Assembly: GCA_965287045.1 (NCBI GenBank)
Contig: OZ336892.1
Location: 38,068,001 to 38,132,000 of the forward strand
DNA length: 64,000 bases
Source: Carcharhinus amblyrhynchos
Lineage: Eukaryota
Reading direction: 5' to 3'
The notes under the pieces: generated by a model
Databases searched by the model: none
Seen by the model: the letters and a program-made list of their open reading frames with translations, nothing else
Told to the model about the DNA's origin: nothing
Shown here: piece by piece, positions 1,671 through 8,625 of the stretch
Layout of the letters: every line of letters begins with the position of its first letter
Numbering within the stretch: position 1 is the first letter of the stretch
Made by a program: the position numbers and the translations under genes

Positions 1671-2863
1671 TTATTGCAAAAATATACTTCAATTCATAAA
1701 ACATCTGAAAGAACATTACAACTATTTCAAAACGGCCAGACAAAGCGCAGTAATATTCCAGTTCTCCACATCACGTTGCACTTGGTGTTTTAGTCCCGTC
1801 AAAGAACAGTTATAGATATTTCAAAATGGTCATTACAAAGGGTGCAAAGGTGTTTAAGTTATCTACCTAGAGTGAGTTGCACGCTGAGGTGGTTTCATAC
1901 AATTGTGGTGTAGGCAATATTCACCATAAGCATAGAATAAGTCATACAGCCAGAGGGTGAGCTGTACAATTCATTCCCCTCAGCCTGCTATGGCTGAAAG
2001 GTTTTAAAGATAGCAACCTTCTCCATTATGTTAACCATGATTATAGCCATCCCTTAATCAGGCGCACCCAATACATTTTCTTGTATACATTACCCCACAT
2101 TATAGTCAGGAGGCCTGTAGACCACATCCATTAGTGACTTCTTTCCCCTACTATTCCTCATCTCTATCCAGATCAATTCCACATCCTGACCTCTTGAACC
2201 AATGCCAACCCCTCCACATTTACCTAGCTTCCTAATCTTCTTAAATGTCAAATATCCCTCAATCTTCAGGACTCAATCCTGTTCATTCTGTAGCCACAGC
2301 TCTGTATTGGCTATTAGGCCATATTTATTTACTTCAATGAGTACTATCAATTCACTTATTTTGTTACGAATGCTTTGTGTATTCAAGTACAGAGCCTTTA
2401 CTTTTTGTTATCTTTGTAACATCTAGCCTCGATTGTGGAATTTTTAGGATTTTCTCTACCTTCTCCTCCTGCCATTCGCTGATGCTTATTTCCCAATTTA
2501 CTATTTTCCTCCCTTTGTTTCTATTCTTTGATATACCACATCTTTTTATATTTGATCCCTTGTCCTACTATTTAGTTTAAACCCTCTCTACTTCCCTGTT
2601 TTTGAGATTTGCAAAATCACAGTTCGGGTGTAGGCCATCCCAACAGGACAGCCAGTACTGTTCCCAGTACCCCACAAAACCAGAACCCACTTCACCTACA
2701 CCAGTCTTTGAGTCACTCTGCTGCCCCTATTAAATACATTAATGAGGCTCCCATCTGCTTCAGTCAAAACAGAATTAAAACCAATCCTTGAATGTCTGAA
2801 TAGGGTGAAATGTCACACAAAGTTGCAGCTGGTTTGTCATACAGGTATTTCCTGGAACCTTAC

Positions 2864-2950
2864 CTGATCTGTCAGACAGATACTGTGTGTGTCCATCTTG
2901 GAGCCTGTTGAGAGAATCCACTGTAGCTTGACATCTCGTGATAAGATAAT
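2864..2950 (-). CDS. HIP1: HIP1 coding exon (about exon 20)
   Basis: 87 nt, gcag|AT...G|gtaagg. Translates DYLITRCQATVDSLNRLQDGHTQYLSDRS. Confidence 0.92.
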
Positions 2951-3939
2951 CTGCAGGAAGCAATTGATTACAGTAAGGATTGCAGTAGGTTATGCGTTTC
3001 TCTCATTAAGTTGACTCGAGCTGCAGTAATCATACAATGTGTGGCATGAGAAAGGTGTTATCTAGGGATAGTGAACAGCTGGGCATTACCGTGTAAGTCA
3101 CACAATCTTTGCAGATCCAGGATAATTTTCCAAGCGAGATTCTTGGTATGCAGCCTCACAAAGTGGGAGTGGCTGATACTGTACTACCTTCATCACATTA
3201 TAATCCCATCTCCAACTCACACTGTGTCTAGCAAGGCACCATGCTAGGAACAGGCTCTCACAGTTGACCTTCTGACTTTTACCAAAGTCAGAGTTCATTT
3301 TGAGGACACAGTGAGTGGCTGAGCTGATTCCACCCATTTCTGTGAGCAAGAGTTGTGCGTCCCAACAGCGGTGGAATTAAAAGCAGCAACGTGCAGTTAC
3401 TGTTTGATATTGCTCATATTCCACAGGGATAAAGCTATGGTGCTCTAGTTCAATGATCATTGCTGCTGGATTTGACTCACTGCACAGTTAACTGAACATC
3501 CAAAATGATTTTATCTATCACTGACTATCCAGTCTGCCACGGGTCTGTAGGTATGTGCCACGACAACTGGATATTCCAGTACAGAACAGCACCTAAAGGT
3601 GTCTGAGCAAGTCACAGGGAGAGACACTTGTAGATTTCACTACCTCTGTCCTGACTGTCCGCATCTCAGCTATCAACAGGATGAAAGGGTAAATTCGGAT
3701 TCTAGCTTTCTATAGAACAACAGAGTCAGCTAATGACATTAACTCAGAAAGCTTGCAAGAGCTTTCACTTTTCTCAGCAGTTCAGGGAATTGGCAAGATG
3801 TTCTGATGTAATGAGGACCAAAGATACTCATGCTGGGCTCCATTTGAACTGTGGTTGAAGGACAACAATATTCTAGCCCTAATGTGCTTCCCTGAAGCGC
3901 ATTTCAACTGGGTGTGTTTTACTGTTGTCAGATAAGTTC

Positions 3940-4237
3940 AAGTTCATTTTAGTGTCACAAGTAGGCATGCATTAACATTGCAATGAAGTTACTGTGAAAA
4001 TCCCCTAGTCGCCACACTCTGGTGCCTGTTCAGGTACACTGAGGGAGAATTTAGAATGGTCAATGCACCTAACCAGCACATCTTTCAGACTGTGCAAGGA
4101 AACCAGAGCACCCACAGGAAACCCAAGTAGATGCGAGGAGAATGTGTAGACTCTACACAGACAGTAACCTAAGCCGAGAATCGAATCTGGGTCACCTGGC
4201 GCAGTGAAGGTGCACTTTTAACCACTGTGCCACCCTG
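3940..4237 (-). mobile_element. tRNA-headed V-SINE/HE1-type SINE (duplicated copy)
   Basis: Reverse complement has A-box gtggcacagtggtt, a B-box, core gggtttcct...gggtgctctggtttcc and tail ggggattttcacagtaacttcattgc. Confidence 0.8.
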
Positions 4238-4295
4238 TCAGAGACTGAATTTCTTACTGATAGATGAATCTGGACTACAGTCACTCAATGCTCAC

Positions 4296-4468
4296 TTTTT
4301 CATTCAGCTGATTCTGCAGCCTCTCAACCGTTCGGCTGGTATTGTCCCTCTCTGCTGATAGAGTCTCCTTCAGCTACTCCAACTCAGCATGTAGTCTGGT
4401 TAATGTACTCTCCTTCTGATCAACAGCCTCACTTAATGCCTTCTTTTCTGATTGCAGGGATTCGATTG
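4296..4468 (-). pseudogene. Duplicated partial copy of HIP1 exon 5537-5731 with an in-frame TAG
   Basis: Near-identical to 5537-5709 at offset 1241. The donor gtgagc is retained. CAG has become TAG at 4376-4374. Confidence 0.9.
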
Positions 4469-4631
4469 CAAAAACAACTTTTTGCACTTAGGGAGTGCAG
4501 AAACAACTTTTTTCTATCTCAAACCTCAATCAACTTCAAAATCACTTCACACATCCTTATTATTAACTAATTAAACTACATTTTGGTTCAAATCCTGACC
4601 AGCCCCATCACCTCGTGCCTTCCGTATTTAC

Positions 4632-4779
4632 CTGCGGAGCTCGTGCAGCCAACGTGAAGGGGATCATCCAACCTGCTGAGTGCATCTTGAACAATTCCCT
4701 CTGCCTCCTCCAGTGCACAGCGCAGCAGAGCAAACTGCTCATCCAGCAGTTGCTTCTCCAGCGTTTGCTCATGGTTTTC
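4632..4779 (-). CDS. HIP1: HIP1 coding exon (about exon 19)
   Basis: 148 nt, ttag|GAA...G|gtaaat. Translates ENHEQTLEKQLLDEQFALLRCALEEAEGIVQDALSRLDDPLHVGCTSSA. Confidence 0.92.
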
Positions 4780-5180
4780 CTAAAGAATACAGAATGTGGG
4801 ATGTCACCACGGTCTGTTTGAAACATATACAGCCAGTCCAGTTACACAGCAGAAACACAAACGCCACCCAGTCTGGGATGTCGGGGTCTGGGTGGCTTGT
4901 GTGAAATTGTTGCAGAGAGCGCACAGGAACATGGAGAGACAATCTGGTGCAGTTACTACAACTCTCATTACTAAGTAGTTCAGCACACAATCTAGACCAA
5001 TACTTCAGTTCTGTACAGAGGGGATGCTGTATTATCAGCAAGTGTTGCCCTTTAGGTAATATTTTAAATGGTTCTGGTGGATGTTAAAAATCCATCCAAA
5101 AAAAAAACACAGCCACAAGCAGAATATTCACCCCAGTGCGCATTTCAACTGGGTGTGCTTTACTGTTGTCAGATAAGTTC

Positions 5181-5478
5181 AAGTTCATTTTAGTGTCACA
5201 AGTGGGCATGCATTAACATTGCAATCAAGTTACTGTGAAAATCCCCTAGTCGCCACACTCCGGTGCCTGTTCGGGTACACTGAGGGAGAATTTAGAACGG
5301 TCAATGCACCTAACCAGCACATCTTTCAGACTGTGCAAGGAAACCACAGCACCCACAGGAAACCCAAGCACATGCGGGAAGAACGTGTAGACTCTACACA
5401 CACAATAACCTAAGCCGAGAATCGAACCTGGGTCGCCTGGCGCTGAGAAGGTGCACTTTTAACCACTGTGCCACCCTG
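5181..5478 (-). mobile_element. tRNA-headed V-SINE/HE1-type SINE
   Basis: Same structure as 3940-4237, with B-box ggttcgattc. Confidence 0.8.
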
Positions 5479-5536
5479 TCAGAGACTGAATTTCTTACTG
5501 ATACATGAATCCGGACTACAATCATTCAATGCTCAC

Positions 5537-5731
5537 TTTTTCATTCAGCTGATTCTGCAGTCCCTCAACCGTTCGGCTGGTATTGTCCCTCTCTGCTGAT
5601 AGAGTCTCCTTCAGCTGCTCCAACTCAGCATGTAGTCTGGTTAATGTACTCTCCTTCTGATCAACAGCCTCACTTAATGCCTTCTTTTCTGATGTCAGGG
5701 ATTCAATTGTTGATGCCATAACTGTGCTTGC
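5537..5731 (-). CDS. HIP1: HIP1 coding exon (about exon 18)
   Basis: 195 nt, polypyrimidine tract then ttag|GCA...AAA|gtgagc. Translates ASTVMASTIESLTSEKKALSEAVDQKESTLTRLHAELEQLKETLSAERDNTSRTVEGLQNQLNEK. Confidence 0.9.
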
Positions 5732-6344
5732 CTAACAGAGAGAGGAGAAACAAAGTGAGAAAGTATTCTGAACTTTACTGAACAAAATAAACACATACTT
5801 CCACAGTGTTTTAAAGCTTAAAAACAAATTAAAAGGGATTGAAAGGTAATTTTTTAAAAAGTATTTTATTTGTCCCTTTTTTAAAAAAAGGGATGTTATA
5901 TAGTAATGTGTACACCACAATGAAGCAAACACGAATACACTTTCAATTTTTAATAACAATTGAACTGTTTTACATTGTTGCAATTGCATTTTAGTTTTGT
6001 TATACGTTTAAGCAGTTGCAAGGTTGCTTTAAGAGCTGTTCACATGATTTGACGGTGATGTCATTGGGGTGTTTTATGCAGGCAAACTGTACAGGTTTTA
6101 CTATCAGTTTGTACTCTGAGCAGTGCTAAGAACATCTCTTTCAATGAAATCTTTATGGTAGTTGTGTTAGTTTGAATCTGCTTGTGGAAACTATGTCTTT
6201 TCTTTTTGTGCAAAACCCACAACTCCTAACATAGGACATTGCAAGTCTGAATTCTGTTGTTAACTTTGTGCAAAGTTTGATAGAAAGGATAAAAAACAAA
6301 CATTTGAATGAATGGTCATAGACCTCAAACGTAAACACTTTCTT

Positions 6345-7470
6345 TCTAGGCGCACAGGAGCAGGAGTTGAACATCCAGCCCTTCAGCCTGTTTTGCCTAT
6401 CAATTAGATCTTGGTAGATGTGTTGTAGTTTAACTACATCGACCTGTCTTCGTCCCATAATCCTTAACACTTTTGCCCAAGTCTAGCAATCTCCATTCTG
6501 AAATTCTCAATTGACCTCTGCCTTGGCAGTATTTTTAAGAGAGTGCTCGAGATCTCACAAGCCTCTGAGTAAGAAATATAGGAACAATGGTAGACCATTT
6601 GGCCCTCAAGTCTACTCCACCCCTCAGCTAGATCATGGCTGATCTTTATCTCAATACCATTTTCTGAGTATAAAAGTGCTTCCTGACATCAACCCTGAAA
6701 GGCCTAGCTTTAATTTTCTAGTTATTCCCCCTTGTTCTGGACTAGGCAGCTTTTCTCCATATTCCATATCAACTCCTTTAATCATCTCAGAAGACCTCAA
6801 TTGGATCATTCCTCACTCTTCTACATTCAAGGAAATACAAACCTAGTGAGTGCAACCAGTCCGTATAATGTAAGCCTTTAACTTTTGCAGGTGATAACTG
6901 AATGCTTGCAGCATGTTCCGTTTTCATAAAGGAACACAGGGTTAGAAATATAGGAACAATGGTAGACCATTTGGCCCTCAATTCCACTCAGCTAGATCAT
7001 AGCTGATCTTTATCTCGATACCATTTTCTGCACTATCCCTTGAAATCATTGAAATCTATAAATATAGATATAAATGAGCCTCTGCAATCCTTTTTTGAAT
7101 TTTGTATGCTTCAAAAAGATCACCTCTCATTCTTCTAAGCTCTAGGGAGTACAGGTTCAATCTCCTCAATTTCTGCTCTGCCCCAGATGGACCTTTGCTA
7201 CATTGTTGCAAGAATATGTTTCCTTGGGTAAGGAGACCAAAATTGTGCACAATAGTCCAAATGTGGTCTCACCCAGGCTTTATACAACTCCAGCAGGATT
7301 TCCTTATTCCGTACTCAAATCCTCTTGTAATAAAAACCAACGTTCCATTTGCCTTCCTAATCGCTTGTTGCATCTTCACATTAACTTTCAGTGACTTATG
7401 AACAAGGACACCCAGGTCCCTCTGGGCATCATCATTCCCAATCTCTCACAAAGTAACAGTTACTCTGTAT
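6345..7470 (-). mobile_element. Cluster of CR1 3'-end fragments
   Basis: LRRLNLYSLELRRMRGDLFEAYKI and LHSLGLYFLECRRVRNDPIEVF. A 3' UTR segment is repeated at about 6572-6665 and 6943-7030. Confidence 0.8.
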
Positions 7471-8085
7471 TTCTGTTAACTGAATAAAATGACTTGACTA
7501 TAATCATTGGTTGTTTAAATAAAACTTTGCGACACGTATAGATAGTTAGACCAATATGAGACAAATGAATCTAAATCCAAGTTAAAGACTCTTTCAATCA
7601 GAGACATTAGTGAATGAACTACACTGCCTCCAACCTCTGCAATGTTTCCCTTTGCATTCACAAAATAACTGTGTGCTTCCCACATGCCGAAGCACCTCAC
7701 ACACTTGTTAGAGCAAATTTCAACTCTGATTCAGCAAGCATCACTCTCATTGCACAGACTTTGACCTTATCAGCATAGTGGCCATGTTCAGGTCAACGTC
7801 TCGAGAATCACAATAATGATCTCGCTTGTATTACCAGCCGCACTCACTAAAAGGTTGAGGTCATCGCTTCAGATTCTGGCTCTCATCTCAAAATGATTTT
7901 CCATCATGAATGACAGCAATGTGAATATCATCTTGACATTTCAGTTTGAAATGCAGCCCTACTGGGGAAGTTAAAAAAGCCAGGAGCCACCTCCTCTCCT
8001 GCTCAGCACACCTCAAACAGCAAATGCCTAACCTCTATACAGCAAGGGTGGGGAAGTGGGAGGGTGATTGTCACCTGAAGAAATA

Positions 8086-8172
8086 CCCCCCCCCCGCCCG
8101 CCCCCCCCGCCCCGCCCGCCCCCTGCACCCCCCCGCCCCGCCCCCCCACTGCACCCCCCCGCCCCGCCCCCC
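8086..8172. repeat. C-rich low-complexity tract (G-rich on the HIP1 sense strand)
   Basis: Runs of C interrupted by g/gca. Confidence 0.9.
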
Positions 8173-8625
8173 AAATTTGCCAATCTCAATCAGTGCTCCT
8201 AAGCTGCTGCTTTGCATCTGACCCATGCTTCCCTTGTCAGGAGTGACAGCTGGGGAGAGTGGACATAGACTGGTGCATTTAATTTAATCATGCATAACAC
8301 CACATCCAACAGTAATCCTCTCAACAAGTACACGCTACAGATTTGCCAGCAGATGTGGGTGATCATGAGCCCATTTTTCCTTTTTATTCTCTGGGGTGCT
8401 CAGGTTGCTTACAGCATCTCAATTTCTACCTCAACCGAAGTCAGGTAGTGCAACAAAAGAGATCTGAACCAAACGTGAGATGCTCTGGTTTGGATGGTCC
8501 AGTTCACAGCCCTGTCTGAATAACTTTAAACTTTTTTTTAGTTTAACTTACTTGGACTAACCAAACGGAACAAAGAGTTCTTGACCCCCAGCCTCTAAGA
8601 TTGGAGGCTGCAAATGTAACCTCAC

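What the first reader, a model, noticed from the sequence alone, without database searches (positions are those of the whole stretch)
4296..4486. Duplicated HIP1 exon with a new in-frame acceptor and a stop codon: candidate newborn poison exon
Seen: 5138-5709 (3' 173 nt of an exon, its donor and a SINE) is copied to 3897-4468, one intron downstream of the next exon. The original acceptor was not copied. The new flank supplies ttgtttctgcactccctaag| ending at 4487. Splicing from the phase-1 donor at 4632 gives G|TG CAA AAA GTT GTT TTT GCA ATC GAA, which is in the original reading frame and hits TAG at 4376-4374. The 191-nt cassette would also frameshift the next exon. Inference: inclusion would give either an NMD substrate or a HIP1 lacking the actin-binding talin-like domain. 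AAG is a weak acceptor, so inclusion may be rare.
Basis: partly seen in the sequence, partly recalled or inferred. Interest (0 to 1): 0.72.

Follow-up and report, generated by a model that had tools for sequence, protein, structure and literature searches.

The report
Decaying partial exon copy, shark HIP1
A 572-base piece of the shark HIP1 gene, holding most of one exon, was copied into the next intron before several related sharks split; the assembled mRNAs of related sharks skip it, so it is likely a harmless, decaying copy and not a newborn regulatory 'poison' exon.

Summary
5138-5709 is copied to 3897-4468 (28 of 572 mismatches, no gaps). A 191-nt cassette 4486-4296 would read in the original frame into TAG at 4376-4374. 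The gene is shark HIP1 (98.4% to Mustelus asterias). The copy is not an assembly artefact, and it is not newborn: its junctions are bridged in contigs of three related organisms that differ from the window by about 1-2%, while the copies differ by 5.5% in the intron part. Three of three RNA contig sets (3 studies) join the flanking exons directly and show no cassette junction, though contigs drop rare isoforms. The AAG acceptor is weak, and two relatives lack 3 nt just before its AG. The copied exon changes at about the intronic rate. 92 of 94 equally scoring decoy exons in HIP1 introns would also be 'poison'. Verdict: most likely a neutral, decaying partial exon duplicate, probably a DNA-repair insertion (0.8). 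A regulated poison exon is not excluded (about 0.06). The scan noted other exon duplications in this genome; a word search for this kind of finding returned none.

The parts
5537..5731 (-). E1, source exon of HIP1 (195 nt, phase 0-0; residues 558-622 of the M. asterias protein)
   Evidence: spliced to E2 and to the upstream exon in RNA contigs
5138..5709 (-). Template of the duplication: last 173 nt of E1, its donor and 399 nt of intron with a SINE
4632..4779 (-). E2, 148 nt, ends in phase 1; donor CAG|GTAAAT
4469..4515 (-). Junction scar: 17-nt direct repeat with 1 mismatch, an 8-bp hairpin and a 6-bp hairpin; holds the candidate AAG acceptor ending at 4487. Organisms B and C lack 4489-4491
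4296..4486 (-). Hypothetical 191-nt cassette (18 nt of scar + 173 nt copied exon); not seen spliced
4374..4376 (-). TAG from CAG, in the E1 frame; the TAG allele is also in contigs of run X3
4290..4298 (-). Copied donor AAA|GTGAGC, identical to the working E1 donor
3897..4468 (-). The 572-bp copy
3937..4240 (-). High-copy SINE inside the copy (its twin lies at about 5178-5481); the family name is not tested
   Evidence: 7 other matches at 71-82% in 104 kb; 85,000-127,000 contigs laid per run, nearly all on this element
2864..2950 (-). E3, 87 nt, phase 1-1; joined directly to E2 in RNA contigs

Best explanation
The feature is a real, old partial copy of one HIP1 exon, sitting one intron downstream of its source, that the assembled mRNA of related sharks skips and that is likely decaying neutrally without any role. 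Shown: the copy, its two junctions in several organisms, its lack of an intact acceptor, and direct E2-to-E3 joining in RNA contigs. Inferred: it arose in one step, when repair of a break in the E2-E3 intron copied 572 bp from a template 1.2 kb away and left a scrambled repeat-and-hairpin scar at the 5' junction. The scar happens to hold a weak AAG acceptor. The spliceosome likely prefers the E3 acceptor. Any rare inclusion would be splicing noise removed by NMD, with no selected function.
For: (1) Age. The intron parts of the copies differ at 22 of 399 sites (5.5%). Orthologous contigs of organisms A, B and C differ from the window at about 0.8-2.1% (e.g. 9/1146, 13/678, 14/653). The 3' junction is bridged in X5, X6 and X7, and the 5' junction in X3 and X7. 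(2) RNA. X22 and X23 (organism B, which carries the copy) and X19 (organism H; copy status unknown) each gave one contig running E1-E2-E3. The loose end at 4632 equals the first 30 nt of E3. No joint 4632-4486 and no loose end at 4296 is listed. (3) No constraint seen. Exon part 6/173 against intron part 22/399, Fisher p=0.40. Four changes fall on the copy branch (T>Q by 2 nt, Q>stop, G>R; M. asterias has the original residues) against 4.8 expected at the intronic rate. B and C lack 3 nt directly before the AG. (4) The acceptor is weak. It scores below all 24 HIP1 acceptors in the full model, and 524 of 5195 intronic AGs score as high. 94 decoy exons in 79 kb of HIP1 introns pass both thresholds, and 92 of them carry a stop or frameshift. 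(5) The scar. 0 of 3000 random 51-nt windows hold both its direct repeat and its hairpin. (6) Such copies are common: 4,027 unannotated intronic exon homologues in human genes (PMC9013439).
Against: Contigs drop rare variants, and NMD would deplete the isoform, so one search shows the main form only. The copy carries a real working donor and the exon's own sequence, which random decoys lack. The acceptor rank depends on the model: it beats 8 of 24 real acceptors on the pyrimidine tract alone, 3 of 24 with position -3, and 0 of 24 with -4, -3 and +1; the model rests on only 24 sites. One of the 24 real HIP1 acceptors is itself AAG, and a branch-point-like YTNAY is present. The constraint test has little power (4 against 4.8 changes). 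PMC9013439 reports that some unannotated intronic exon copies are expressed tissue-specifically. The origin by repair insertion cannot be told from tandem duplication plus deletion without an allele that lacks the copy.
Confidence: 0.8

Rival explanations
1. Leaky pseudo-exon. The real donor and exon sequence define the cassette well enough for about 1-5% inclusion. These transcripts are destroyed by NMD and slightly lower HIP1 output, but without regulation or selection.
For: Donor identical to the working E1 donor; 13 of 16 pyrimidines in the tract (real acceptors 9-16); YTNAY present; one real AAG acceptor in the gene. Unproductive splicing is pervasive: 15% of human protein-coding transcript molecules (PMC11387194 abstract).
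Against: No branch kept in 3 of 3 RNA contig sets at contig depth 11-24. -3 A and +1 T are each found in only 1-2 of 24 real acceptors.
Confidence: 0.12
2. Regulated poison exon. The cassette has been recruited as a tissue- or condition-specific AS-NMD switch for HIP1 dose.
For: All parts needed are present. The cassette stays poison without the TAG, because the shifted frame stops two exons later. The copy has persisted across at least four lineages. B and C would have CAG in place of AAG.
Against: No inclusion seen. The acceptor has an indel between close relatives. No slowdown of substitutions. A low-depth contig of organism B stops fitting at 4444, inside the cassette (depth 2, a hint only). 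Persistence is expected of neutral DNA over 1-2% divergence.
Confidence: 0.06
3. Source of a truncated HIP1 protein (about 708 aa: ANTH plus clathrin-binding coiled coil, no actin-binding I/LWEQ) that acts as a dominant-negative adaptor.
For: Domain positions fit: ANTH 35-299, clathrin-binding 478-576, I/LWEQ 879-1027. One annotated ray isoform (P0019, 850 aa) also lacks I/LWEQ.
Against: The stop lies at least 11 junctions upstream of the end, so NMD is expected. All four copy-branch changes are amino-acid-changing or nonsense. None of the 34 annotated shark and ray isoforms compared has an extra segment here; whether those species carry the copy is unknown.
Confidence: 0.015
4. Assembly artefact.
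For: None found. X3 may come from the window's own study, so it is not fully independent.
Against: The copies differ by 4.9%. The 5' junction is bridged with 0 differences in X3 and also in X7; the 3' junction is bridged in X5, X6 and X7.
Confidence: 0.005

Closest known systems
Unannotated intronic exon homologues / tandem exon duplications (Ivanov and Pervouchine 2022, PMC9013439; parts 1-3 of 4 of the text read)
   Same: A homologue of an annotated exon in an intron of the same gene, at over 80% identity and unannotated.
   Different: The copy is partial, lacks the intact acceptor, jumps over one exon into an intron of another phase, and cannot replace its source as a mutually exclusive exon. 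No conservation peak or split reads were found here.
Poison exons, as characterised by Carvill and Mefford and cited in PMC8819188 (12 passages read); cryptic poison exons in PMC11632617 (abstract)
   Same: Inclusion would bring a premature stop far upstream of the last junction.
   Different: Known ones are conserved and measurably spliced. Here splicing was not seen and the 3' splice site differs between close relatives.
Templated insertions from nearby templates by SD-MMEJ or MMBIR (PMC2943611 and PMC8421209; abstracts only)
   Same: Nearby template, and short direct and inverted repeats at the junction.
   Different: 572 bp is long for polymerase-theta insertions (recalled, not checked). 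The pre-insertion allele is unknown, so tandem duplication followed by deletion remains possible.
Vertebrate HIP1 (Sla2/HIP1/HIP1R family)
   Same: 847 of 861 residues identical to M. asterias HIP1; ANTH, clathrin-binding and I/LWEQ domains.
   Different: None in the protein. The gene is intact across the 24 exons modelled.

Membership tests
Poison exon | Spliced into a measurable share of transcripts | tested here: inconclusive
   3 of 3 RNA contig sets show E2 joined to E3 and no cassette junction; contigs cannot show rare forms.
Poison exon | Introduces a premature stop that meets the NMD position rule | tested here: met
   TAG 1067 nt and at least 11 junctions upstream of the last modelled junction; the frameshift also stops two exons later. 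Conditional on inclusion.
Poison exon | Exon and splice sites conserved beyond neutral intron | tested here: not met
   3-nt indel next to the AG in organisms B and C; 4 copy-branch changes against 4.8 expected. Low power.
Poison exon | Inclusion rises on NMD inhibition, or is regulated | not testable with these tools
   No raw RNA reads or NMD-block data were offered.
Tandem duplicated / mutually exclusive exon | Homologous copy of a neighbouring exon in the same gene | tested here: met
   173 nt at 96.5%; the only such copy among 24 exons in 104 kb.
Tandem duplicated / mutually exclusive exon | Both splice sites kept, with phase and position that allow it to replace its twin | tested here: not met
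   Intact acceptor absent; lies after E2 in a phase-1 intron; 191 nt breaks the frame.
Templated repair insertion (SD-MMEJ/MMBIR type) | Nearby template and short direct or inverted repeats at the junction | tested here: met
   Template 1241 nt away; 0 of 3000 random windows hold both repeat types (pattern defined after seeing the scar).
Templated repair insertion (SD-MMEJ/MMBIR type) | Pre-insertion allele shows the flanks joined, with microhomology at the switch points | not testable with these tools
   All three relatives laid as DNA carry the copy; no outgroup DNA of this intron was available.
HIP1 (not HIP1R) | Best matches are annotated HIP1, and a separate paralogue exists in the genome | tested here: met
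   18 of 19 hits named HIP1 and 1 unnamed; a second family member on contig C20 is only 76-89% identical in two exons; calling it HIP1R is recalled.

The most novel reading that the evidence does not exclude
A poison exon caught in the making from recycled parts: a partial exon copy brings the donor and exon body, and the DNA-repair scar brings the acceptor. Closely related sharks would carry different stages (AAG plus internal stop here, CAG in two relatives), so the birth of an AS-NMD switch on an endocytic adaptor could be followed species by species.
Probability: 0.06. Interest if true: 0.5.

Novelty: new member of a known kind. Interest (0 to 1): 0.15.

Why it matters
As it stands it matters little: intronic exon fragments are common and this one shows no sign of use. 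It is a clean example of how a local duplication leaves a latent splice unit, with a real donor waiting for an acceptor. If inclusion were shown and differed between the AAG and CAG species, it would give a natural series for testing how poison exons originate, which is usually studied only in old, ultraconserved cases (recalled).

Tried and rejected
1) 'The stop is absent in relatives' and 'gene conversion between the copies' (my first reading) were dropped. The contigs collapse the two copies into mosaics: X3's own contig 4195-4452 mixes original and copy alleles. The G at 4376 in X5, X6 and X7 therefore does not show the state of their copies. 2) 'Organism A has lost the acceptor' was dropped: its unfit letters lie beyond the stretch end and the contig simply ends at 4509. 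3) 'RNA structure hides the AG' is uninformative: the AG is paired at 0.92-0.99, but 9 of 14 real acceptors are also above 0.75. 4) Tandem duplication of the whole 1241-nt unit: no remnant of E2 was found after the copy (best tblastn E=4). A weak DNA similarity (7 of 600 real windows) is one of four flank comparisons and far below the 95% expected; I treat it as chance. 5) The 3' flank similarity is not significant (164 of 2000 shuffles). 6) Rfam gave no match in 2800-6000. 7) No listed holder run is on record as RNA; the three laid were guessed RNA, and their contigs are spliced. 8) The Fisher test used 23 intron mismatches by mistake; it was redone with 22. 9) MaxEntScan and SpliceAI were not available. 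10) I laid 7 of the 24 listed runs; organisms D-G and I were not examined. 11) Literature searches found no paper on this shark HIP1 feature; supplements were not read.

Full report
1. Observation. A local alignment pairs 5709-5138 with 4468-3897 at an ungapped offset of 1241. There are 28 mismatches in 572: 6 in the 173 exonic bases and 22 in the 399 intronic bases. A search of the whole genome with 4240-4560 finds only these two places. The candidate acceptor ends at 4487 and the copied donor starts at 4295, so the cassette is 191 nt. After the phase-1 donor of E2 it reads in the E1 frame for 37 codons and stops at TAG 4376-4374.

2. The gene. E2 matches proteins annotated as HIP1 in sharks and rays (18 of 19 hits named so). 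Using the window and 40 kb of adjacent contig, I modelled 24 exons. They translate without an internal stop and match M. asterias HIP1 at 847 of 861 residues, which points to a carcharhiniform shark. A separate family member lies on contig C20. Pfam places ANTH at 35-299, the clathrin-binding domain at 478-576 and I/LWEQ at 879-1027. An included cassette would give about 708 aa without I/LWEQ. The stop would lie 1067 nt and at least 11 junctions before the last modelled junction. Even without the TAG, the shifted frame stops two exons later.

3. Real and old. I laid four DNA contig sets on 2800-5130. X6 has only 25 letters on the copy side, and X5 has no cover there. The 3' junction is bridged in 3 of 4 runs (X5, X6, X7); X3 has no cover there. 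Organisms A, B and C differ from the window by about 0.8-2.1% in orthologous contigs, while the intron parts of the two copies differ by 5.5%. The duplication therefore predates these splits by a clear margin (inference; 7 of the 28 differences are CpG transitions). I give no date in years.

4. Is it spliced? I laid three runs guessed to be RNA, from three studies (X22 and X23 of organism B, X19 of organism H), on 4245-5130. Each gave one contig of 1047-6480 nt at depth 11-24. The loose end at 4632 is the first 30 nt of E3, and the loose end at 4468 is the uncopied start of E1 followed by the upstream exon. The 'goes back' joint 4778-4295 is the normal E1-E2 junction laid on the copy, because E1 was outside the stretch. 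So these are spliced mRNAs of the form E1-E2-E3. No joint into 4486 and no cassette-to-E3 end is listed. This shows the main isoform. It cannot exclude a rare, NMD-depleted one. Organism B carries the copy; for H this is unknown.

5. Splice signals. The donor is identical to the working E1 donor. I scored the acceptor with a small model built from the 24 HIP1 acceptors. It beats 8 of 24 real sites on the pyrimidine tract alone, 3 of 24 when position -3 is added, and 0 of 24 with -4, -3 and +1. Between 142 and 524 of 5195 intronic AGs score as well. In its favour, one real acceptor in the gene is AAG and a YTNAY motif lies upstream. In 79 kb of HIP1 introns, 94 decoy exons (the cassette among them) pass both thresholds, and 92 carry a stop or frameshift, so 'poison' is the default outcome. 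An AG this good lies within 20 nt of a random intron point in 13.8% of cases, and in a given open frame in 4.1% (8.5% within 60 nt). The in-frame fit is mildly lucky and is irrelevant to a poison role.

6. Constraint. The exon part does not differ significantly from the intron part (Fisher p=0.40). Against the M. asterias protein, four base changes fall on the copy (T>Q, Q>stop, G>R), and the original's differences are synonymous. At the intronic rate 4.8 are expected. Organisms B and C both lack 4489-4491, so their site would end in CAG with a shorter tract, about equal in my model. The direction of that indel is unknown. Whether the relatives' copies carry the TAG cannot be read from collapsed contigs. 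All of this fits neutral drift, with low power.

7. Origin. The 47 nt before the copy hold a 17-nt direct repeat and hairpins; 0 of 3000 random windows hold both a repeat and a hairpin of that size (a post hoc pattern). They weakly resemble the original acceptor flank (67 of 5000 intron windows and 1 of 23 other acceptors score as high). This fits template-switching repair that copied from 1.2 kb away (PMC2943611 and PMC8421209, abstracts). Tandem duplication of the full 1241-nt unit would first have doubled the frameshifting E2 with both splice sites, and no E2 remnant is found. One-step insertion is therefore more parsimonious. This step is inferred, not shown.

8. Comparison with what is known. 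PMC9013439 (parts 1-3 of 4 read) lists 4,027 unannotated intronic exon homologues in human genes and finds that some are expressed. [quoted passage not shown] This cassette meets only the last. PMC11632617 and PMC11387194 (abstracts) show that cryptic poison exons sit in conserved intron regions and that unproductive splicing is widespread. Five searches found nothing on this shark locus. Earlier scan notes list other exon duplications in this genome and none matching this kind by words.

9. Verdict. It is most likely a neutral, decaying partial exon duplicate (0.80), then an unregulated leak (0.12), a regulated poison exon (0.06), a truncated protein (0.015) and an artefact (0.005). Interest 0.15.

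Noticed in passing
window 21187-21181 (minus strand): The HIP1 exon 21275-21187 needs a GC donor (AAG|GCACGT) to keep the frame: a GC-AG intron.
   Followed up: partly
L004 about 928 (minus strand): The last modelled HIP1 coding exon uses an AAG acceptor, the only one among 24.
   Followed up: partly
window 4444-4329, run X6: Organism B's copy-junction contig stops fitting at 4444 with 55 unplaced letters, and bin depths suggest only one contig covers 4329-4443; its copy may be interrupted. Depth 2, so it may be an error.
   Followed up: no
window 4464 / 5705: This synonymous CpG-context site differs between the copies in the window, but both copies agree in organism C (A) and apparently in B (G): recurrent CpG decay or local gene conversion.
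   Followed up: no
L007 (G000:C20 about 28.78 Mb) and L008 (G000:C1 about 38.55 Mb): A second HIP1-family gene (76-89% identity in two exons, likely HIP1R) and a more distant I/LWEQ gene (39%, likely a talin); the names are recalled.
   Followed up: partly
window 6569-6666 and 6941-7030: Two short segments repeated 364-372 nt apart at 94% identity in the intron upstream of E1; another local duplication or repeat fragments.
   Followed up: no
window 8080-8190: A C-rich low-complexity tract (G-rich on the HIP1 sense strand) about 440 nt downstream of the exon 8727-8626.
   Followed up: no
P0019 (protein hit, no locus): An annotated ray HIP1 isoform of 850 aa lacks the I/LWEQ domain and ends in an unrelated tail; a gene-model prediction only.
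   Followed up: no
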